Source: Massalongia carnosa
Lineage: Eukaryota
Direction of reading: 5' to 3'
DNA length: 64,000 nt
Assembly (NCBI GenBank): GCA_965645245.1
Contig: OZ287067.1
Span: 2,108,001-2,172,000, forward strand
The translations under genes and the position numbers were made by a program. The notes under the pieces were generated by a model. That model did no database searches, was not told the origin of the DNA, and saw nothing but the letters and a program-made list of their open reading frames with translations. Positions 52,664-64,000 of the stretch are shown here, piece after piece (within the stretch, counting starts at the first letter, position 1; every line of letters begins with the position of its first letter).

Positions 52664-54619
52664 GGCTCCGCATTTCTGGATGGTCTTGGAATGATCCTCC
52701 TAAGAGGCGCACCGCAGCCGGTTTGTGCTGGTGCCTGAAACGTGTCGTGTCAAGTTTTGCGTATTGCTCGAAAAGTCCAATCGGTGCCTTTCCCACTATC
52801 TCAATTTTCTACTACCCTTATCACGCAATAGTTTTCTCCACGGAGACGCCTTCATGGGGTCTTTCCATCTACCTCACATCTGTACACGTCTCTACATAGA
52901 TACCCAGTTCTGGTCTATCAACAACCTTTGCACCCAAGCATGCCCACCCAGTGGGACATCATCACGACTGGAATCCAATTCCTGAAAAGAATGCTTGACG
53001 AGCACCTAAAACTCCCTTTTCTTGATGAGATACCTAACCGTGCCGTTGTGTGTACTCGTTCTTCCTCGGTACCTACGCGGAGGCTCTTTTTATCTTGAAC
53101 CAAACCTTCTCATACTTATATCTATTTCTCTCTATTTCATCGTACCTAAAATCAATCGACAAAAAAGGTTCTTCCTCTTTTCCCTCGCCGTTCCTCCCTC
53201 CCATGAATTATCGCAGCTTGATCCCAAAAAACCGCGCATCCTTGTATCCTCCCGATTCGCCCTTGCTATCTGTTCTTTCTGAATTCGTTTCGACGAGAAT
53301 GAGGTTTGGAAGGGCGGTTTCTTGTTTTTCAGAGTATCGGAAGATTGTTCTCGACATTCACACTTTCTTCCAAAGAAGAAAACGCCCTCTTGAGCCACAG
53401 ATCTAAGTACTTCCTGCATACACATATTTCTTCATGGTCCCGCTCCCTCAAATGAAGGGAATCTTTTCCTGATCTGCCCTTCTCAGTTAATTATCTGAAA
53501 ATCTACAGTTCCGATGCTCCACCTCCCAAATCCCGAGCTCCTTCCATTGCTTTAGCTTCCACCTGTGAGCGTCTTTCTTCCAATTCGGCCGCTTGTGCAT
53601 CAGAGTAACACGTAGGTATGTGATCATTGAACTGAAAGTCGAGAGTTTTTGAGGAAAAGGGAGAATAATGCGTCCATGTAGATTTGCATACATGGCTGGC
53701 ATGTGTCTAAATTGGCTGACTTAGTCTGGAAAGTATTTTTTTATTGATGTTTTTGTCTTTTCTTTTCTTTCCTTTCCATTTCTTTTGAGTGAGAGAGTGT
53801 GTGTGTGTATGAGTGAGTGAGCGGAAGTAAGGAATGGGTCGACTAACTCCGAAGAAAGATCAAGGGAAAGTATCCGAGTAAGTATCCGTGGAGTACCTAC
53901 ATACCTACATATTATATGAACCCATCTAGAAAGCATACCTACCTATCTATTTATACGAACCACAATCTTTCCAACTATCACAAACGTCTTAGTTCAGTTT
54001 CCCATTCTTGAAAAGTCTGCAAGCATTTCGTCGCAGTAGGAAGAGAAAATAAACGAAACATTTCAATATTTCCAACAAAAGGGAGGACTCTTTTACCTTA
54101 CCCGATGAGCGTAAGTCAATGGTTTTGGGGAAAAGGCTTCAAAGCCTCGGTCGCTCATCACAGAAAAATACCAATGGCAAGAAAATAAATCAGGTTAATG
54201 GCCTCCGAAAACATTACTGGAGGTAACTAGTAGGTTCGATTTGCGATGACTTCCCCCCAGCGGATCGATTGATATGGTTCTAGAGACCGATCCAAGGCGC
54301 GAATGAGCGGAATTCAGGTACTTTGCTTAGATACTTGCAGAAGTTCCTTTTATTTGTGGGAAAGGGGTAGGATTGCGTTTTCTGCTTTCCCCATTCTTTC
54401 CATTCTCCCTCCCCAAACCGGGTCCCGAAACCCATCTCGTCCGTTCAGTTTCTCCTAAAAAAATAATCCGGTATCCGTTATTTTTTCAGTGATCCTCGTT
54501 CCATTATTCGTTCCCTGCTCCCGGTTCCCGGGGGAAGAGGAACTTCGTTGGTGGTGGGCCCCCCCCCGGGGAAGGGGGAATACCTACCTACCTAGCTAAT
54601 ATAAACAATTGCGGTTTCT

Positions 54620-54925
54620 TTGTTTCCTTTCTCGTCCATTCCTCTTGCAAAAGGCCGCGTGCAATGTGGCTCCTCTTAAGGAATTTGGTCAAAAGTATTG
54701 ACTATTTCTTTTAGGATGGACCGGGTTATAGGTCAACGTTCTCGTGGCTGGACAGCGGGGCGGAGCCGGCGTATGCCTGCTACGATTCTTTCTAGTTGGG
54801 GATGATGAAATATATCTAATTCAGCCTTCGACGCGCCTCTGTCGACTTGATAAGATCTGATGCCGTTTATGTATTGTTTTATGGTTTTTGGATTAATTCC
54901 CCTATCGCGTAAATAGGCTGCCACG
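54620..54925 (-). mobile_element. Tyrosine-recombinase (DIRS/Ngaro-type retrotransposon) fragment
   Basis: AYLRDRGINPKTIKQYINGIRSYQVDRG...FHHPQLERIVAGIRRL...RER*PITRSIL resembles the N-terminal part of fungal YR integrases; truncated. Confidence 0.7.
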
Positions 54926-55024
54926 CGAGGGACAAAAAAAACTAAACAAAATTTAACCGGGCTCAACTCCTCACCAAAACACAAGCAATTTACATACGAT
55001 TTTGATGGGATAATCATCATTATT

Positions 55025-55460
55025 ATGAATTCTATACATATCGAGACTCCTATTAAAGCTAAAATTCAGGGAGCCGTTGAGTTTTGCGAAAAGCAAGGCA
55101 TTTCTTATCACAAAGAGGATGTTTTTCGCACATTTGATGTGGAACGTACGAGGGGCTATGCATACCTGCGTGAAGGAGCCTCATCACGCCGTCATCATAA
55201 TAATTCCGATGTTTCTGAAGCTCGTGGGCGTCTCAATTTTTACGCCTAAATTGATTAGAGAAATGGAACGGCTATTGGAAGAAGAAGGTATGAAGGCACG
55301 CGCTCTTACATGGAAGCAATTGAGCTTCGAAGTAGGCCTAGACTGCAGTGGCAAAATCATTCAACGAATCATGAGCATCATGGATTATCACAAATGCATT
55401 GCGTGCAGAAAGGATAAGTGAACGAGAAGACAAGAAAGCTTCGTATGAAGTGGTCAGATG
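55025..55460 (+). mobile_element. Tc1/mariner transposase 5' fragment, frameshifted
   Basis: TPIKAKIQGAVEFCEKQGI...KEDVFRTFDV...RGR / ARALTWKQLSFEVGL...MDYHKCIACRK (HTH region); no DDE domain retained. Confidence 0.7.
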
Positions 55461-55649
55461 CTATCCGTGCCCCACACTTTCGCTCGGTCGGCCTCACTTA
55501 GTGCTAGCCAGCCATACAACCAAAAATCAACTACTCTACATATATCGGGGTTTTTTTCAACAATTCCTTCATGCTCATCATTCATCTTTTGTGATTATTC
55601 ATTCGCTTAGTCATGAGCATCTTTCTATGCGCTTTTGACTGTCTAGTCA

Positions 55650-56539
55650 TATTGGTGAGAGCCGTACAATAGCGCTTTTCCCATGCGACCCCTCGTTCTT
55701 TCTCTCTCTCCTCCTCTACCTTCTCTGTCTCGAATCATTAAACGAGCCTCTTCAACAGTAAATACATCTTCGCGATGAAGAATCTTATTGAACCTTTTCG
55801 AGCAGTCTGAACCGCGGTTTGCTGTTCTCAGCGTTGTTTGAAAAGATCGTCTTTTCGTACTTCGATCACAGCTTCTTTCACAAATTTGCTGATCATTTAT
55901 ACAAGATCATCAGAACAAGTCGAATGCATCATGATTTCTGTGATTATTTCGATCAACTGTCGCACGATTCGAGGAATTTTTGTATTGATTGAACTGCTAT
56001 ATAAGACGAAATTGAAATTGAAATTGATTCACGAAAACGAGAAAGAAGTTCTCGAACTTTATCGAGAGCAATTTTCGAATTGTATGAAATCAAGTTCGTT
56101 TGTTTTCAAGCGAATTTTATTGTTGATGATTTAAACGCTCGCGATCGAAACGAGTTAAATGCAGCAAAAAATTCGATTTTGAAAAACGTTTCGTCTTCGT
56201 TCTGAATTGTCTCATTGACGACACTGGCCCAGATTCTGGCCCTCGTGCCATTGGTTCTCCCATCGCATAAGGCTCGCAAAAGGCGTTTCGAAATGTACCT
56301 GGACGTCTGCCGTAGTATCCGATGGGTTTTGGTGATCCAATCGTCCAGCGATTGGCATTCGTCATCCGTTAATGCTAATGGATCGAGTGCCTTTCCCCAC
56401 TGAAGCCTCATGACCCGCTCATGTAGACCCATTATAGACGCAACTAGAATACTGAAATTCTGGGTGCATTACAATACTGATGATAGAGCGCAACGCTAAG
56501 CTTAGTGATAGTTGCGAAATCGCTAACCCCAAAATTCAT
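55650..56539 (-). pseudogene. Pseudogene with a SesA/HeLo-like fungal NLR N-terminal domain and an AT-shifted 3' part
   Basis: MNFGVSDFATITKLSVALYHQYCNAP, then a 1-nt shift to QNFSILVASIMGLHERVMRL...LDDWITKTHRILRQTSRYISK, then stops. Confidence 0.45.
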
Positions 56540-59052
56540 GGCGGCCGTGTTGGTTGAATTGCGATAGGGATTATATTAAGGGTAGAACTGGGATGAAAGT
56601 ATGTTCGAAGTGGAGCTTATGATAAGCTTACTGTTACTATAGGAAAAGGGTGATTGGAGAGGATGAGCTGTTGTGGATTGAGGGTAGTGAAGTATGCTGC
56701 TATGGTTTGAGCGCAGACTCCTATATATGTAAATTAACCTTCTTAGGGACTAACATTAGGTCTTCATTCTGAATCGTTCTACTATCTAGACTCCAGCGCT
56801 GAAGCATGACAACACCACATCTCCCGCTAAGTTTAATATATGATTCAACTCGAAACCAAAGACAGCGCTGGAATTAATGAATGGACGTAAGAGACAATCG
56901 CGGATGATGATTCAAATCAGCCATAACGACGATATGTCCAAAACACATTTCATACCCGAGGTTGGTTATGGAAAGTTACCTAGAGACAGATCGAGATAAG
57001 CCTCTTGCAGGAGCACGATGCGTCGATGGCCAGCGGAACCCAATAAGCGAGCCAAGAATGTCTGACATTTCTTTGTTCTCGACGGTTATGGCTAAGACAA
57101 GCCTCCTTCGAGACAAGATTCTGGAACCCATGTGCTTTTTCCTGAAGAAAATTTTTTTGAAAGCCTTCATGCACCTCTCCTTCCGACAGCCTGTCTTGTT
57201 CAGTTTTGGTATATTCTTAACGAAATCTTGAACATCAAGGGAACCTTTCGCACAGACTCAGTCTCTTTATTGTTCTTGTAAGAAGCAAAAGTGATCCAAA
57301 TGAGAGCTTTTGTTCAAAATCTACGCTTGGATATGGTTGCCAGAACACGAATTATATGGGGAGCTCATGATTGTGGTGGCTGGGCTCAGTCGTCAGATAC
57401 GTCAAGGAGGCCGCCCACATCCTTCGCGACAGAGAACGTACAGAACAAATAGTTATACGATTAGTCTAAAAGGGCGGTTTAGGTTACGGAGGCCACAGTC
57501 TCACATATCATAGGAAGGAAATTTCCTGACGTTGCTGATCGGGTCTGTTATTCTGTCATTTTGAAACGTGGGTCTCTTAAAACGAAAGACACTCTACTTC
57601 ACCAATGTGAGCCATCCTCACAATTAACCAAGCTCGCTATCGATCAGTTCAAGAGACGCTCTGAAAATGCGAAACGCCAATTTCCACTCCCATTTGTGCC
57701 TCCAACAACGCCACATGGTCCCCTTAAACTGGCTGTGAATTCCCCGTAGATCGCTGCGAGGATCAAGCCGAGGACCCACAGGACCCGAGACAGTGAGAAA
57801 GCTCTTGAAAATTTGGGGATCGAGCAGCCAACAAAGCTAACATATTCTCGAAATAATGCGAATAGAAACGGATCGCAGATCCCGATTTGCACCTTTTCAG
57901 AAAAGGGGAGACGGGAAGAATTTAATTTAGCAATCAGAGCAGCCAAAGATATTAAGTCATCATGTAGGTTCATAAGCTGAACAGCTGAAACGCTAACCAA
58001 CACCAGGCAAGTATTCCTACTTACAAGCCAGATGAGTCCATTCGGGTGATAAAGGGGGCCCCGTTTCTCGGTCCCTAAGGAGGCCCAAATTCGAACGTAG
58101 CGGGTTTTTTTCTCTTCGTGTGATAGAGAGTTAGATATACGACATCAATTTTCATAATGCGTTCAAGCATTTGCGAACAGCGCAAATTACCGTTATGGCT
58201 TCAGGCTCGGACTGCAGATTCCCCCCACCCCTTCCATTGCCCTACGTTACGTTCTAGATAGAAAGATTCTATCATTCTGCTAATATAAGCTGTGTTGAAA
58301 ACAGTTACTGTGACAGTGGGGTCGGTTCCGCATTCAAACTTAGGGATTTGTCAATTTCCAAAAAATAAAAACAAAACAACTGAAATGTGTTTGAATTCAG
58401 AAGATATACAAATCAGGCTCTAAATTTGGGGAGACAAACTTGGAAATGCTAGGAAATCGAAAAATAGCTATTTTTGGCCCTATGCCACCTTGGGCTACTA
58501 CCCCACCAACCAAACACCCTCCGCTCCTACTCTGCCCTCGACCGTGCTACCGCTAAAACTGTCCAGATCCTCGATCCTCTACCCTTGTCCCCAGGAGATA
58601 CGTGAGCTTGCTTTGTTCATGAAAGTGTTTGGTGGAGATTGGTGGTGGTGGTGCTTGGCAAAGTGTCGAGCGGAGGTGGAAAACTTTGAGCACAAGGCCA
58701 CGGCGGCGAGATGCCGCTGCTGCTAAATTAAGCTCGATAAGGTCAAAAAGAACTTGGATCTTTAATTGGGCTTGAGCGCACACTTCGGTTTGTACTGGTT
58801 GTCCAGAAAAGGGTGCCTGTGCTTCTTAACGTTATGTGCGATCCATGCGGGATCATTGAAACCTGTTGGCACTTTCGACTCGCGCTTTCTCTAGCCCCTT
58901 ACAACTCCCCTTAGGCTGTTCCTTCCGTGACCCGCCATGTGGTTTTCTTCGAGTGGGCTGGGAATAAAGGGTCTTTAGATCTGCGAACCTTCTAGCTTTT
59001 AACTATGATTTCTTCCATTAGCACCCTCAATGTCTAGACTAGCAATAGGAGT

Positions 59053-60369
59053 TTAGCTCGGAACTGTGGCATCCAGACTTTGAGTCTTAGCGTTGGCGGC
59101 GGCGATGAATCGACAGCGTTGTTCTTTTGCCCAGTCACGGGCATTCCTGTACGCACTGGCACCCTCACGAAATGATATTGACGTACTGGCCATATCCCAT
59201 TGTCCTAGCTGCGTCATTTGATATTGTATAGTACTGTTGGAGTTTGCTGTCCGAACAGCATGGATCGTATACAATGTGAGTAATCCGGCCTCTGTGTTAT
59301 AAGTCGATGTGATCGTATAAGCATCCGTCTCCAGAAATTTCTCGGAATCAATATAACATCGAAGCATATCCATACCACGAGCACCTAAAGTACCATGATA
59401 GCAAGCTTGACGCCAGCTGACTCGAGGAGATTTCGAGCCTCCTTTTGCTTCTGTGAAGAAGTTTGGCAAGCATGGGTTTTTCTTGTTTTTTGATGGTATG
59501 ATGTATTTACTGAGTTCGTTCCGGACGCGTTTGCTCAATTTCCGGGACTGCTCTCCATCATAGAAATCTGGCCTGCCAGTGATGATCGAGCCATCTGTGA
59601 GATCGCAAAGGTTTGTGAACCTGATGCTTCTTTGAGTCCTAAATCTTGCCTTGCCAGCAATCAATAGAAGCGCCTGATCCGTCGTTCTGGGTTCATTGGC
59701 TGCTGCTCGTCTCGCACTTACGAAAGCTTGAAACGCAGGTTGGATAATAAAGATCGAGGTAAGAGATGGTCTGGGTGCGCTCAGCATTTTCTTGATTTCC
59801 TTTATGTTGCTTGGTTTTTCTAGACCAGGTCCTTCTTCCATAAAAATACGGTAATCAACAAGATGCTGTTGGAAAGCAGCATCATAGGCAGACCTTCGAC
59901 GAGTTTTGGTTTCTGAAGGAGCTCGTTCTTTGGTGGAGAAGTTTGAGTACTAGAACGTGTCAGTAATTCCCTCACAATAATCCCATATATATAATACCGC
60001 TATCATTTCATTGATATTTGGACCGCCGTGTCTGGCAAAGCGCTTTAGCTGTAAAATGTTGACCTCCCTCAAAGTGGATGGTGCTGGCGGCTGGGGTTGA
60101 GAAAATCGGACTGTCCTCCGATCAAATTCCCGAAGAGCACGAAGAGTGAGCCATTGGCGTGAAAGACTATCCCAGAACGCGGGCGGGTTTATATTTAGTC
60201 TATTAGATGATGCTGATGTTGTTGATGGTACCGAAGGAGTGGAAGACGGGGGAAGAAGAGGAGAATAAGAACGAGAAAGAGAAGAAGCTGGAGACAGAGA
60301 TGGAGACCGAGACTGAAACGGAGAAGGAGAAGGAGAAGGAGAGGAATCGGGCTCGCTTTCGCTAGACAT
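59053..60369 (-). CDS. Fungal PD-(D/E)XK nuclease-like hypothetical protein (~422 aa, 2 exons)
   Basis: Exons 60369-59998 and 59949-59053 splice in frame across a 48-nt intron. Motifs PPAFWDSLSRQWLT, SAYDAAFQQHLVD, RPDFYDG, LPNFFTEAKG, RQACYHGTLGARGM and FREGASAYRNARDWAKEQR. Confidence 0.8.
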
Positions 60370-60466
60370 TCTCGTATTCAAAAGAAAATGATGTTAATGG
60401 GTCAACCAGAAAGAGAATATAGTGAAAACGATGCGCAGTTATACTAGCATGTAGATACATTCCGCG

Positions 60467-60558
60467 AACAAAGGCACTTAACCTTCCATATGCGGAGAGG
60501 ACTCTTCTTCCACAAACGAAAAATTCTCTCCGCATATGGAAGATCAGGTGCCTTTGTT
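60467..60558. promoter_or_regulatory. 33-bp inverted repeat (30/33 match, 26-bp spacer) in the divergent intergenic region
   Basis: Left arm aacaaaggcacttaaccttccatatgcggagag (60467-60499); reverse complement of 60526-60558 is aacaaaggcacctgatcttccatatgcggagag. Confidence 0.8.
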
Positions 60559-60676
60559 AGTCCCCCTGGTTTGTGTCAAAGTCCCAGCTTTTTAAGAAAC
60601 ATACCTTAACATCAATCATAGAAAAGGACGCTATCGAAGTCTTACCTAGCTAATTCCTTGCCCCTATACTCCTATA

Positions 60677-61760
60677 ATGGATAATCTGGTAGGTTGGTTC
60701 CGCTGATGTCTCCGCCCTTGTGTTTCTCGGAGGTATATCATCTAATTATTCACAGGATTTGCGCATTGCGGGAAAATACCGCCTGAAAAGGAAAATTGCT
60801 AGTGGTGGCTGGGGAGTTGTTTATCTAGGTATGGTTTGCTGATACAACACGACCTGTTCCTATTACTCACCATTGTAAAAGCAACCGATCTCGATTCAAA
60901 GGAGGATGTCGCCGTCAAGCTCGAGCACATGTTCAATGAGTCTTTGCTACTCTCAAACGAAGCTAACGTTTATCGCCATATTTCTGGTGGTGTTGGTATC
61001 CCTCGCGTTCATTGGTATGGCTCTGAATGCGAATATTATGCTCTGGTCCTTGAACTTCTAGGCCCAAGTTTGGAAGATCTGCTCTACTTTTGTGGGGGGA
61101 AGCTTTCTCTCAAGACTACTCTTATGCTCTTTGATCAGCTTATATGCCGGTTACGGTACATCCATTCCAAAAAGATTCTTCATCGAGACATAAAACCAGA
61201 AAACTTCTTGATGGGCACCGGCAAGCGTGGCAACCAGGTTTTTGTGACCGATCCAGGCCTTGCAACCCACTATGTGGCCAGTGACAGGGTGGATCCCATG
61301 CCCCGGCCGGAAAACCCACAGGGTCTTGGCACCCCATACTACTCCAGCATAAATGGCCAGCTAGGTATACGTATGCCATGCAATCCATATGGGCGAATGT
61401 CTAGTGGTAACTTCGCTAATCATGGTTGTAGCGCAATCATACCGCGACGATCTCGAGGCTCTAGGATTTGTGGTCGTCTATCTGCTTCGAGGCACTCTGC
61501 CATGGCCAACAGGAAACGATTTAGAATCCATCGCCAAAGTGCTCAATGTGAAGGAGACAATCAGTGTAGAGGATTTTTGCCAAGGGCTGCCAAAAGAAAT
61601 TGCCACGTATCTCAAGTATGTGAAGTCTCTTCGAGATGGAGAAAAGCCCAATTACTCTTATTTGCGCCGCCTGTTCCAAGGCCTCTTCAAACGAGAGGGC
61701 TTCGAATACGACTATGTCTTTGACTGGACTATTTTAAAGTATAGGATGACAGTACCATGA
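60677..61760 (+). CDS. Divergent casein kinase 1 (Hhp1/Hrr25-derived) paralogue, ~300 aa, 4 exons, no C-terminal tail
   Basis: Exons 60677-60688, 60756-60828, 60882-61370 and 61432-61760 give an open frame with DLRIAGKYRL, VAVKLE, LLGPSLEDL, HRDIKPENFLMG, QSYRDDLEALG and DYVFDWTILKY. Confidence 0.9.
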
Positions 61761-62558
61761 CGGGAGTAGCTTTATAACATAGGCTCTGCCTTTTAAGGAT
61801 AACAGGAAACATAAAATAAGTCGAAATTATTGTCATAGGATAATCTATACTCGCAATGATAGGCATATTTGATAGTCAACCATTGAAAGGATAGAGTTAC
61901 TATTCAACCATTTGACCTTAGGAATCGAAAGGATCATGATAGCACCATTTAAGAGTAAAGCCAAATCTGTATCGAGAGTGATATGGTGGTGGGTAGTCAT
62001 CATATCCTTTAACCTAAAGCCTGATTAAGTTAGAGCGAAAATCTGCCACGTGATTAGAAAGCAGCGTTAGCTTAAGTCAAGTTACCTAAACTATTTACAC
62101 ACAAAAAGAAGATTATCTCGTTATGGTTGACGGACTACAAAGGAATGGAAAATCGAATGATTGCGGAGGATTGATAGCTATCTACCTAGTTGCTTCGATA
62201 ACCGGATGGCCGAATGGGTCAGATGGTCGAATAGCGGAATGAGTGAGTGACCGAATGCGTACTTTGGGGGGGAACACATGATCGGATAGGCTTTGTTCAG
62301 GTCTGGGGACAGTGATAAAAGGGGAGCAGATCTGATGGAATCATTCCGCTTGTGATGGTTGTTTTTCTGCATTTGACTTTTGGTTGTTTGAATTGGTGGG
62401 GGGCCCTTTGCTGGGGTCATTTCGAAACCTTTACCTTAGAAGTGTCCTTCGGGTTGCTTGGTTCGACGCAGAGAGGGGACAAAAGGAAAAGAAGTATGAA
62501 AGACTTTGGGCTTTCATTGAAACTTTGTCTGTCTAACCTGTTATATTTTTGGAGACAA

Positions 62559-63420
62559 CTATGCCCCCCCTCCGCCCAAACCGCTGGCCTGGCGCCCCAA
62601 TTGCCCCCAAAACTCCTCTCTCTCTCTCAGCAGCTCCGTGCACCAAGCTTTCACTTCCGGCAGCCGAATCCGCTTCACTACCCCAGTGAACTCCCCCAGG
62701 TCGAGTCTTCCCTCGTGGCTCCGCTCATATTCCATCATCTGCAGCACCAGCTCGATCTTGTCCACATCGTGTACGAACACTGCCTCCAGCGTTTGCGAAT
62801 CCTCATACTCCTGCCACACTTCGCGGATGCCCTGCCCTTGCTCGAACCCCCCACTCGACCGGCCCAGTAGCGTTCCGGTCAGGAAATCCATAGTTTCGGA
62901 TTCCCGGCTGTGCTTCTCGGCTACAGGAACGCCGTCAACGGGTGTAATGTCGCCGACAAGAGCCTCTGCCATGTCGTGCACGAGAGCCATTTTCATGCAA
63001 CGGGAGAGGCTTAAGCGGGAAGATAGGGAGGGCGGGGCTAGCATGGTAATTATGGACATGCGGTACATATGGTCTGAGATTGATTCCCCGGCGGAGATGC
63101 CGAAGCGGCGCCATCCCTCTCGTTTGGTTGTTTTGAGCCGTTCAATAAGATGTAGGAAAGGGAGTGTGGAGGTGGGGTTTTTAGGGGGGGGGAAGGGTAG
63201 GGAGGCGAGTACTATGATTGTTTGTCAGCCTATTGAGTGGAGACAACTGTTTCATGGGTGTCGAAAATGAAATGGGGGAGTAGAGTTCAGTACCTGTTTT
63301 CAGCGACCATGGATCTATGTTTGCCGATACTACAGCAGGTGGTGTAGATGAAGCTGCTTCATTAGACTGCGTATTGGACACATGCAATGAATCAGTTGTA
63401 TTTGATGGTGGATGTGACAT
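62559..63420 (-). CDS. HD-domain 5'-deoxynucleotidase (HDDC2/Ygk1-like)
   Basis: LKTTKREGWRR, ESISDHMYRM, MALVHDMAEALVGDITP and VHDVDKIELVLQMMEYE. Confidence 0.9.
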
Positions 63421-64000
63421 CTGCAGGATGTTTTTGAGGATATTTAACCTGTAGTGACTGAGAATGGAGACGGTGAGGCAGGGTATGGGGGTTAAATTGA
63501 TCTTATTATTTGCGTTTGCTCAATTTGGTCAGTACAGTTAGTGGTAGCCCGGATTTAGAACAAAGAAACGCTCGTGGAAATGAATGTTTGCTAATCTAGA
63601 GACACGCAATGTACTCTATATGCGCGTATCCCTGTGTTATCCACTACAAGAGTACCTTATCCTCGTCTATCGATAGGGATATTCTATAAGCGCTTATCCG
63701 TGTATCATTAGCCGCCGTGCCGCCGTATTTGTTTCACACTAGTCGCTCGGTCTAAATACGTCAAGGTAATCTATAACCTCCGTATCTGCTCTGTACGGAG
63801 TACGGAGTATAGAGTACGGAAAAAAAATGCGCAAACCTTCAATTGTAGTTCTTATGCCCCTGAATCTTGCTTAAAATCTCCTCCTTTGCAACAGAATCTC
63901 GAGCATCCCATGATGCGTCTGATTGTTGATTGCCAGCATGACCAAACCAGATGTACCTGCATTGTCAATCTATTCCAAGTCGCAAGCTTCAATTTTCGTC

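What the first reader, a model, noticed from the sequence alone, without database searches (positions are those of the whole stretch)
59053..61760. Head-to-head nuclease-like gene + divergent CK1 kinase: candidate two-gene toxin/antidote or selfish module
Seen: two genes with fully open spliced frames diverge from a 307-bp intergenic region, inside an island where the other recognisable elements are broken. One protein has a PD...ExK arrangement (RPDFYDG...FFTEAKG). The other is a CK1 that is clearly not the housekeeping copy. Known: PD-(D/E)XK is the restriction-endonuclease fold. In Podospora SPOK meiotic drivers, a nuclease domain is needed for killing and a kinase domain for resistance, within one protein. 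Inference: this may be a split nuclease-kinase unit in which a captured host CK1 controls a toxic nuclease (spore killing, allorecognition or defence), or the core of an unrecognised mobile element. I recall the nuclease-like family as a fungal DUF (possibly DUF7924), but this is unverified.
Basis: partly seen in the sequence, partly recalled or inferred. Interest (0 to 1): 0.85.

Follow-up and report, generated by a model that had tools for sequence, protein, structure and literature searches.

The report
Fungal nuclease paired with private kinase
Many fungi carry a two-gene cassette in which a probable DNA-cutting enzyme sits back to back with its own shortened copy of an essential host kinase; it may be an undescribed poison-and-antidote unit, but killing and rescue are untested.

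Summary
The minus-strand gene (422 aa) has a PD-(D/E)XK fold with a full catalytic set and is a peripheral relative of DUF7924. The plus-strand gene (300 aa) is a tail-less HRR25/CK1 duplicate that keeps all three HRR25 introns. In this genome 4 of 7 nuclease loci lie head-to-head with a CK1, and all 4 non-housekeeping CK1 loci lie beside a nuclease. Among 55 non-redundant metagenome loci, 25 are head-to-head, 1 tandem, 6 carry a CK1 relic, 13 have none and 10 are too short. Four named fungal genomes show consecutive locus tags. Both genes are under purifying selection and co-diverge. No conserved ends were found, so it is cargo rather than a transposon. Best reading (0.45): a Spok-like split cassette in which the kinase restrains the nuclease. 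Against it: intact nucleases without a kinase are common, including two in this genome, and the window's kinase has a unique DPG for DFG. Toxicity, rescue, binding and expression are untested. My literature searches found no description of the pair.

The parts
59998..60369 (-). Nuclease-like gene, exon 1 (aa 1-124): Ser/Pro-rich start, then the family's FWDxLS and FARHGGP motifs
   Evidence: motifs shared with relatives
59950..59997 (-). 48-nt intron, GT..CTGAC..AG, phase 0
   Evidence: relatives are interrupted at the same place
59053..59949 (-). Nuclease-like gene, exon 2 (aa 125-422 and stop): PD-(D/E)XK domain. E210 at 59694-59692, D252 at 59568-59566, E291 at 59451-59449, K293 at 59445-59443, Q305, Y308. 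Lacks the acidic Ser/Thr-rich tail of many relatives
60370..60676 (.). 307-bp gap between the two start codons; inferred shared bidirectional promoter
   Evidence: sequence; relatives have about 450-700 nt between the matched parts, with conserved ATTGG, TGACTC and CGCGCG boxes that the window copy does not show
60467..60558 (.). Palindrome: 41-nt arms, 85% complementary, 10-nt loop, centred between the two starts; unique to this copy
   Evidence: z = -7.3, 0 of 100 shuffles as stable; only a self-match in the genome
60677..61760 (+). CK1 paralogue derived from HRR25, 300 aa, no C-terminal tail. Exons 60677-60688, 60756-60828, 60882-61370, 61432-61760. K41, alphaC Glu and HRD (D131) kept; DPG at 61250-61258; rebuilt activation loop
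54736..54920 (-). Fragment of a multicopy tyrosine-recombinase gene (DIRS-like label recalled); not part of the cassette
   Evidence: 136 matches in the genome; a 351-aa relative hits Phage_integrase at E 6e-4
54914..55464 (+). 5' part of a multicopy Tc1/mariner-type transposon, frameshifted; not part of the cassette
55463..56220 (-). Fragment of a DDE_1 (pogo-type) transposase; not part of the cassette
62562..63224 (-). Flanking HD-domain gene (ordinary gene; right edge of the island)
   Evidence: Pfam HD_3 E 1e-50

Best explanation
A two-gene conflict cassette that works like a split Spok. Shown: one gene encodes a PD-(D/E)XK-fold protein with a complete catalytic set; the other is a DNA-level duplicate of HRR25 that lost its tail and rebuilt its activation loop; the two face a shared short gap, co-diverge and are kept by selection. 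Inferred: both are transcribed from that gap; the nuclease cuts nuclear DNA; the tail-less kinase is always on and holds the nuclease off, by phosphorylating its Ser/Thr-rich flanks or by binding it. A spore or nucleus that receives nuclease without kinase is damaged, which favours the cassette and the accessory DNA that carries it. Copies without a kinase would have to be silent, restrained by host HRR25 or covered in trans. The window copy is an old, divergent member whose kinase may be weakened.
For: Fold: model pLDDT 84.8; top matches mL37 Z 11.6 (rmsd 5.1, 220 aligned), DrdV Z 8.8 (2.8, 132), BpuSI Z 8.7 (3.9, 144), then Uma2-type, HsdR, NucC, EcoRI. E210/D252/E291/K293/Q305 conserved in 99-100% of 119 relatives. 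Linkage: 4 of 7 and 4 of 4 in G000; 25 of 55 clusters head-to-head, 32 of 55 with CK1 sequence; 4 consecutive locus-tag pairs and 14 of 119 shared contig lengths against 0.53 by chance. Linkage survives a second, tandem arrangement whose nuclease and kinase both branch separately. dN/dS 0.07-0.20 (nuclease) and 0.13-0.34 (kinase) in 28 comparisons; Mantel rho 0.88 over 13 pairs. Of 29 head-to-head units, 13 have both frames open, 14 have both disabled, 2 have a broken nuclease with no stop in the visible kinase, and 0 have an intact nuclease beside a broken kinase. Two sister copies in G000 lost 5 of 5 and 4 of 5 catalytic residues while keeping about 75% of other conserved sites (P 0.001 and 0.018). 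Precedent: in Spok3 the nuclease Lys is needed for killing and the kinase Asp for resistance (PMC6660238, passages).
Against: Intact nucleases with no linked kinase: L041 and L042 in G000; 9 clusters with at least 2 kb on both sides and 4 with at least 2 kb upstream (some of these are themselves broken); L115, 98% identical to L050 but with the kinase deleted; and a clade where only a CK1 C-lobe relic remains beside a catalytically complete nuclease. A true antidote should sometimes outlast its toxin, yet 0 of 4 kinase paralogues in G000 stand alone. The only open paralogue in G000 has DPG (1 of 46 sequences) and lacks the Arg and Lys that most relatives keep (36 of 46 Arg; 38 of 46 Lys/Arg). 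Much of the joint decay looks like region-wide transition damage (RIP-like; my reading), which hits both genes whatever their function. Close relatives swap partners (L049 and L052 have near-identical kinases but separate nucleases), so specificity is not strict. Every host already has HRR25. Co-divergence is expected of any linked genes. 69 of 80 metagenome loci share one accession series and are not independent.
Confidence: 0.45

Rival explanations
1. The kinase switches the nuclease on or senses a threat. The pair is a defence or non-self-recognition cell-death unit: the nuclease is dormant until its private CK1 phosphorylates it, and host HRR25 or another signal serves the solitary copies.
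For: Solitary intact nucleases are tolerated; kinase paralogues never stand alone in G000 (0 of 4), as expected if useless without the nuclease; neighbours include NLR-type, HET, TPR and ankyrin genes; kinase activation loops are highly variable.
Against: A tail-less CK1 is expected to be always on (tail autoinhibition: PMC10699747 and PMC7733671, passages), which suits a brake better than a trigger; no sensor domain seen; 0 of 29 units have an intact nuclease beside a broken kinase; the immune-type neighbours are common in accessory DNA generally.
Confidence: 0.22
2. The kinase acts on the host, not on the nuclease: extra HRR25-type activity helps the cell survive nuclease-made breaks or alters meiosis in favour of the carrier.
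For: HRR25 acts in DNA damage repair and meiosis (PMC10699747, passages); partner swapping among close copies and loss of the kinase in some clades fit a helpful but optional, non-specific partner.
Against: The paralogues lack the C-terminal region that localises Hrr25 in yeast and have rebuilt the activation loop, pointing to new substrates; no direct data.
Confidence: 0.13
3. No functional link: one ancient capture of HRR25 beside a nuclease gene, then passive co-inheritance as cargo of Starship-like and other accessory DNA.
For: All linked kinases can be one clade (90/80, not starred); many nucleases thrive alone; captains or DUF3723 lie near some copies (6 and 6 of 80 loci).
Against: Both genes stay under purifying selection beyond synonymous saturation; flanks turn over completely while the pair persists; it survives a change of orientation; the three other G000 pairs are disabled in both genes by separate lesions.
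Confidence: 0.12
4. The pair is the core of a small self-mobile element, with the PD-(D/E)XK protein as its cutting enzyme.
For: In G000 the four pairs sit as small islands between housekeeping genes, not behind captains; the family is huge (3008 clusters at 50% identity); many copies are hypermutated.
Against: No conserved ends or terminal repeats; similarity ends raggedly soon after the stop codons; recent copies are parts of blocks of 10 kb or more; no close DNA copy of the window pair in G000.
Confidence: 0.08

Closest known systems
Spok spore killers of Podospora (and FuSpok of Fusarium)
   Same: PD-(D/E)XK nuclease plus kinase; a Q..Y motif after the catalytic Lys; Spok3's best HHpred hit, Vibrio HsdR, is also in this fold list (3h1t, Z 7.0); multicopy, found in accessory DNA.
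   Different: Two genes, not one protein; the kinase is a captured eukaryotic CK1, whereas Spok's is described as closer to ELKs; no Cys cluster seen; no killing shown; sequence homology to Spok not tested.
CR/Crinkler REase-plus-kinase toxins
   Same: REase domain thought to be toxic, kinase thought to regulate it (PMC5289972, passages, reviewing Zhang et al. 2016).
   Different: Those are single proteins with an N-terminal header domain; here two divergent genes, no header recognised. Zhang et al. 2016 itself was not available and might list this family.
DUF7924 (PF25545)
   Same: 78 of 82 relatives match at E up to 0.1; Atlas top clusters (0.96-0.98) carry it in 55-60% of members.
   Different: Window domain scores 19.1 bits against a cut-off of 27. 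Core members (70 matches in G000) are a separate set and none lies at a CK1 locus.
HRR25 / CK1 delta-epsilon
   Same: About 49% identity, all three intron positions, catalytic Lys, Glu and HRD.
   Different: No tail, long branches, DLG (32 of 46) or DPG for DFG, variable activation loop, multicopy and often pseudogenised.

Membership tests
PD-(D/E)XK superfamily | Helix-three-strand-helix-strand core fold | tested here: met
   REase-fold chains fill the top ranks (DrdV Z 8.8, rmsd 2.8, 132 aligned). Foldseek alone gave nothing at E 0.001 or better.
PD-(D/E)XK superfamily | Catalytic Glu on helix 1, PD, and (D/E)xK on the core strands | tested here: met
   E210, D252, E291, K293 at matching secondary-structure positions, 99-100% conserved
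PD-(D/E)XK superfamily | Metal-dependent nuclease activity | not testable with these tools
   needs an assay; the top fold match, mL37, is a ribosomal protein
DUF7924 (PF25545) | Score at or above the gathering cut-off of 27 bits | tested here: not met
   19.1 bits, E 0.001; some relatives pass (best E 4e-12). Peripheral relative, not a core member.
CK1 family, HRR25 branch | Sequence, tree position and shared introns | tested here: met
CK1 family, HRR25 branch | Catalytic Lys, alphaC Glu, HRD Asp | tested here: met
   Lys and Glu 46 of 46; HRD intact in the window copy
CK1 family, HRR25 branch | DFG motif | tested here: not met
   DPG, 1 of 46; relatives mostly DLG or DMG
CK1 family, HRR25 branch | C-terminal regulatory tail | tested here: not met
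   ends at residue 300, right after the kinase domain; own HRR25 runs on for about 85 residues
Spok family | Nuclease, Cys cluster and ELK-like kinase in one polypeptide | tested here: not met
   two genes, CK1-type kinase. One fused record, P0244, among 10 long hits lacks the kinase's first strands and may be a merged gene call.
Spok family | Sequence homology to SPOK proteins | not tested
   no SPOK sequence was fetched; no such Pfam family among hits
Spok family | Spore killing and resistance | not testable with these tools
   needs crosses or expression
Starship cargo | Lies downstream of a DUF3435 captain within element bounds | tested here: inconclusive
   No captain listed on C1 among 60 scored candidates, and flanks are ordinary genes, so unlikely for the window; L054 and L121 have the pair directly behind a captain; element bounds not mapped.
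TIR DNA transposon | Conserved terminal inverted repeats and target duplication | tested here: not met
   old copies could have lost them

The most novel reading that the evidence does not exclude
An undescribed, widespread class of fungal gene drive or addiction module in which a captured, tail-less copy of the essential kinase HRR25 is the antidote to a divergently transcribed DUF7924-related DNase, with catalytically dead derivatives acting as resistance-only alleles.
Probability: 0.3. Interest if true: 0.9.

Novelty: new variant of a known kind. Interest (0 to 1): 0.7.

Why it matters
How Spok's kinase confers resistance is stated as unknown (bioRxiv 10.1101/2025.02.05.636631, passages). 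A natural split version that uses a well-studied kinase would make that question directly testable: each half can be expressed alone, and CK1 mutants and inhibitors exist. It also assigns a fold and active site to a family of about 3000 clusters that appears in one held paper, and it explains extra CK1 genes in fungal genomes as cassette cargo that annotations label simply as casein kinase I. Even if the kinase activates rather than restrains, a nuclease with a private CK1 would be a new regulatory design in fungi.

Tried and rejected
PDB sequence search with the family profile: nothing significant. Foldseek on PDB and viral models: nothing at E 0.001 or better. Viral contigs: 0 of 149 candidates confirmed. 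Prokaryote genomes: 2 of 81 candidates, both intron-split and at 37-56% GC, one abutting 74% GC DNA, read as fungal contamination, no CK1. Expression: no RNA holder listed; this is no evidence either way. Empty site: no joint in 4 runs over 56300-64000; the left edge of the island was not covered. Conserved termini: none. Other kinases as substitute partners of solitary nucleases (APH, FTA2, FunK1, Pkinase near some loci): positions inconsistent, rejected. Fusion as proof of partnership: 1 of 10 long hits, possibly a merged call. N-terminal motif region: low-confidence model and no Atlas hit. Island DNA 52801-59050 against fetched loci: no translated match printed. Earlier findings: none for the pair in 5 look-ups; one giant-virus note (e1-5599351) is a different arrangement and was not used. 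Literature, 10 searches: DUF7924 and PF25545 (125) each gave one paper; Starship + casein kinase gave 2 unrelated (31); CK1 + drive terms 0 (33); spore killer + casein kinase + fungal + nuclease 0 (114); kinome expansion (64), Starship/lichen cargo (65) and Hrr25 duplication (79) listings showed nothing on the pair by title or abstract start; two searches found the precedents. Subscription papers and supplements were not searched.

Full report
OBSERVATION. The window is G000:C1:2108001-2172000 of a 52-Mb, 25-contig genome; introns and the named relatives make it an ascomycete fungus, not identified further. Both genes are as described: a two-exon minus-strand gene of 422 aa (60369-59053) and a four-exon plus-strand gene of 300 aa (60677-61760), 307 bp apart. 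Left of the pair lie fragments of three multicopy elements: a tyrosine-recombinase gene, a Tc1/mariner-type and a DDE_1 transposase. A GNAT gene and an HD-domain gene flank the island. Four public runs show no differing letter where they cover 56300-64000; they are at most three samples and one may be the source.

THE NUCLEASE-LIKE PROTEIN. Exon 2 has 471 relatives in the word-indexed search and 3008 clusters at 50% identity by profile. Named relatives are lichen-forming and rock-dwelling fungi, plus Anthostomella, Ophiocordyceps, Macrophomina and Rhinocladiella among longer hits. It matches DUF7924 only below the cut-off. The model (pLDDT 84.8) matches restriction-endonuclease folds: mL37 Z 11.6, DrdV 8.8, BpuSI 8.7, a Uma2-type protein 7.0, HsdR 7.0, NucC 6.6; a second model from a relative gives the same list. 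The tool notes that Z under 8 can be a common arrangement, so the case rests on the top rows, the consistency of the list and the motif. E210, D252, E291, K293 and Q305 are 99-100% conserved and fall on helix 1, before strand 2, on strand 3 and on the next helix. Activity is not shown.

THE KINASE. It is a duplicate of HRR25: about 49% identical and sharing all three intron positions, so copied as DNA. Linked kinases form a clade apart from HRR25 (21 rows at 100/98; with three deeper ones, 24 rows at 90/80, not starred). They end near residue 300 without the tail, which in yeast and mammals is autoinhibitory (PMC10699747 and PMC7733671, passages). Lys and Glu are kept in 46 of 46 sequences; DFG is mostly DLG (32) or DMG (6). 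The window copy alone has DPG, and has lost the Arg and Lys that most relatives keep. That these two residues bind the priming phosphate, and that a proline in DFG should impair activity, is recalled knowledge. Both window proteins still show selection: 76 of 86 highly conserved columns kept against 9 of 41 variable ones (nuclease), and 56 of 67 against 11 of 47 (kinase).

LINKAGE. In G000 there are 7 nuclease loci and 6 CK1-like loci: HRR25, a Yck-type gene and four paralogues. All four paralogues lie head-to-head with a nuclease. The best 80 of 134 confirmed metagenome loci give 32 head-to-head, 3 tandem, 17 with a downstream CK1 relic and 28 with none. Collapsed at 95% identity, 55 clusters give 25, 1, 6, 13 without a kinase despite at least 2 kb upstream, and 10 too short. 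69 of the 80 share one accession series; among the other 11, three are head-to-head and three (one cluster) tandem. NCBI locus tags are consecutive in Protoblastenia (006316/006315), Lepraria (003106/003105), Xanthoria (005000/004999) and Flavoplaca (005715/005714). 14 of 119 nuclease hits share a longest-contig length with a kinase hit; jittered lengths give 0.53 on average, at most 5 in 2000. The metagenome search started from the nuclease only, so solitary kinases outside G000 were not counted.

EVOLUTION. For 13 intact pairs, the 28 comparisons not involving the window with dS under 1.2 in one gene give dN/dS 0.07-0.20 and 0.13-0.34; one kinase model (L054) has an imprecise third intron. 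Comparisons with the window are saturated. Distances correlate (Mantel rho 0.88; 0.64 within nine close pairs), as for any linked genes, with partner swaps among close copies. Linked nucleases are spread over the tree (10 changes against 22.1 shuffled), which fits old linkage with repeated loss; the tree is unrooted. Of 29 head-to-head units, 13 are open in both genes, 14 disabled in both, 2 have a broken nuclease with no stop in the visible kinase, and none has an intact nuclease beside a broken kinase. Much of this is region-wide hypermutation and so weak evidence. The three other G000 pairs carry separate lesions: a frameshift and a 2-kb transposon insertion (L036), frameshifts and stops (L039), and a kinase frameshift with a nuclease that lost all five catalytic residues (L038). 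L038 and L039 are sisters, so one lineage, not two.

CONTEXT. Conservation stops soon after the two stop codons, with no terminal repeats. Close relatives share promoter-like boxes in the gap; the window copy has a unique palindrome there. Neighbours in metagenome loci include DUF3435 (6 of 80), DUF3723 (6 of 80), NLR-type, HET and other accessory genes; that DUF3435 and DUF3723 mark Starships is recalled. In G000 the pairs sit between housekeeping genes and no captain is listed on C1.

AGAINST A STRICT POISON-ANTIDOTE READING. L041 and L042 in G000 are intact with no CK1 hit on their contig. L115 has lost its kinase by deletion, though an intact pair (L054) lies in the same assembly. One clade keeps complete nucleases beside a kinase relic. 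No kinase paralogue stands alone in G000. The window's kinase may be impaired while its nuclease looks active. Expression and binding are untested.

MECHANISM. Shown: two selected, co-inherited genes, a nuclease fold with its active site, and a tail-less CK1. Inferred: shared promoter, DNA cutting, constitutive kinase, control of one by the other. I put restraint by the kinase, as in a split Spok, at 0.45; activation or sensing at 0.22; action on host repair or meiosis at 0.13; passive hitchhiking at 0.12; self-mobility at 0.08.

KNOWN SYSTEMS AND NOVELTY. It may work like Spok (PMC6660238, passages; PMC9972908, abstract and section list; bioRxiv 2025.02.05.636631, passages) and like REase-kinase Crinklers (PMC5289972, passages), but it is not a member of Spok: two genes and a different kinase class. 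DUF7924 occurs in one held paper, as a family of highly variable copy number in Neurospora crassa (PMC13412767, one passage). Ten searches found no description of the pair; Zhang et al. 2016 was not held and supplements were not read, so a listing there cannot be excluded. Verdict: a real, conserved and apparently undescribed nuclease-CK1 cassette, a new variant of a known kind, interest 0.7.

Noticed in passing
G000 C7, C11, C12, C13, C19 (e.g. C11:2161230 and 2185180): Core DUF7924 has 70 matches in this genome; at least six lie 15-27 kb behind DUF3435 captains, so it looks like regular Starship cargo and may share the nuclease fold.
   Followed up: partly
L038:5974-6900 and L039:5584-6746 (G000 C10, C3): Sister pseudo-nucleases: catalytic residues replaced while the scaffold was kept; possible resistance-only or decoy lineage, now decayed.
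   Followed up: partly
window 60467-60558: Strong palindrome centred between the two start codons, not seen in other copies or elsewhere in the genome; origin unexplained.
   Followed up: partly
L036:6121-8132 (G000 C10): Apparently intact 2-kb DDE_1 transposon with 25-nt terminal inverted repeats and a 556-aa frame, inserted in the CK1 paralogue.
   Followed up: partly
window 54736-54920 and over 100 places in G000: Large family of tyrosine-recombinase elements with many near-identical 351-aa frames, suggesting recent spread.
   Followed up: partly
L068:9083-9400 and relatives L073, L075, L085, L086, L101, L113: Clade with a CK1 C-lobe relic immediately downstream of the nuclease on the same strand.
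   Followed up: partly
L050:5665-7611, L088, L092, L106: A 1.7-kb insertion with 244-bp direct repeats splits the shared gap and duplicates its nuclease-side part.
   Followed up: no
L052, L057, L059, L112, L049: Recurrent block of over 10 kb: helicase, CK1, nuclease, DUF7025 gene and another kinase; possibly a larger mobile unit.
   Followed up: no
L126 and L127: Intron-split fungal-type genes inside two bacterial genome bins; probable contamination of those bins.
   Followed up: partly
L040 (G000 C3:635000-644999): A frameshifted nuclease copy sits between a polyketide synthase and an AflR-type regulator of a secondary-metabolite cluster.
   Followed up: no
window 56300-59000: About 2.7 kb of single-copy DNA with no recognised gene between the transposon fragments and the pair.
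   Followed up: partly
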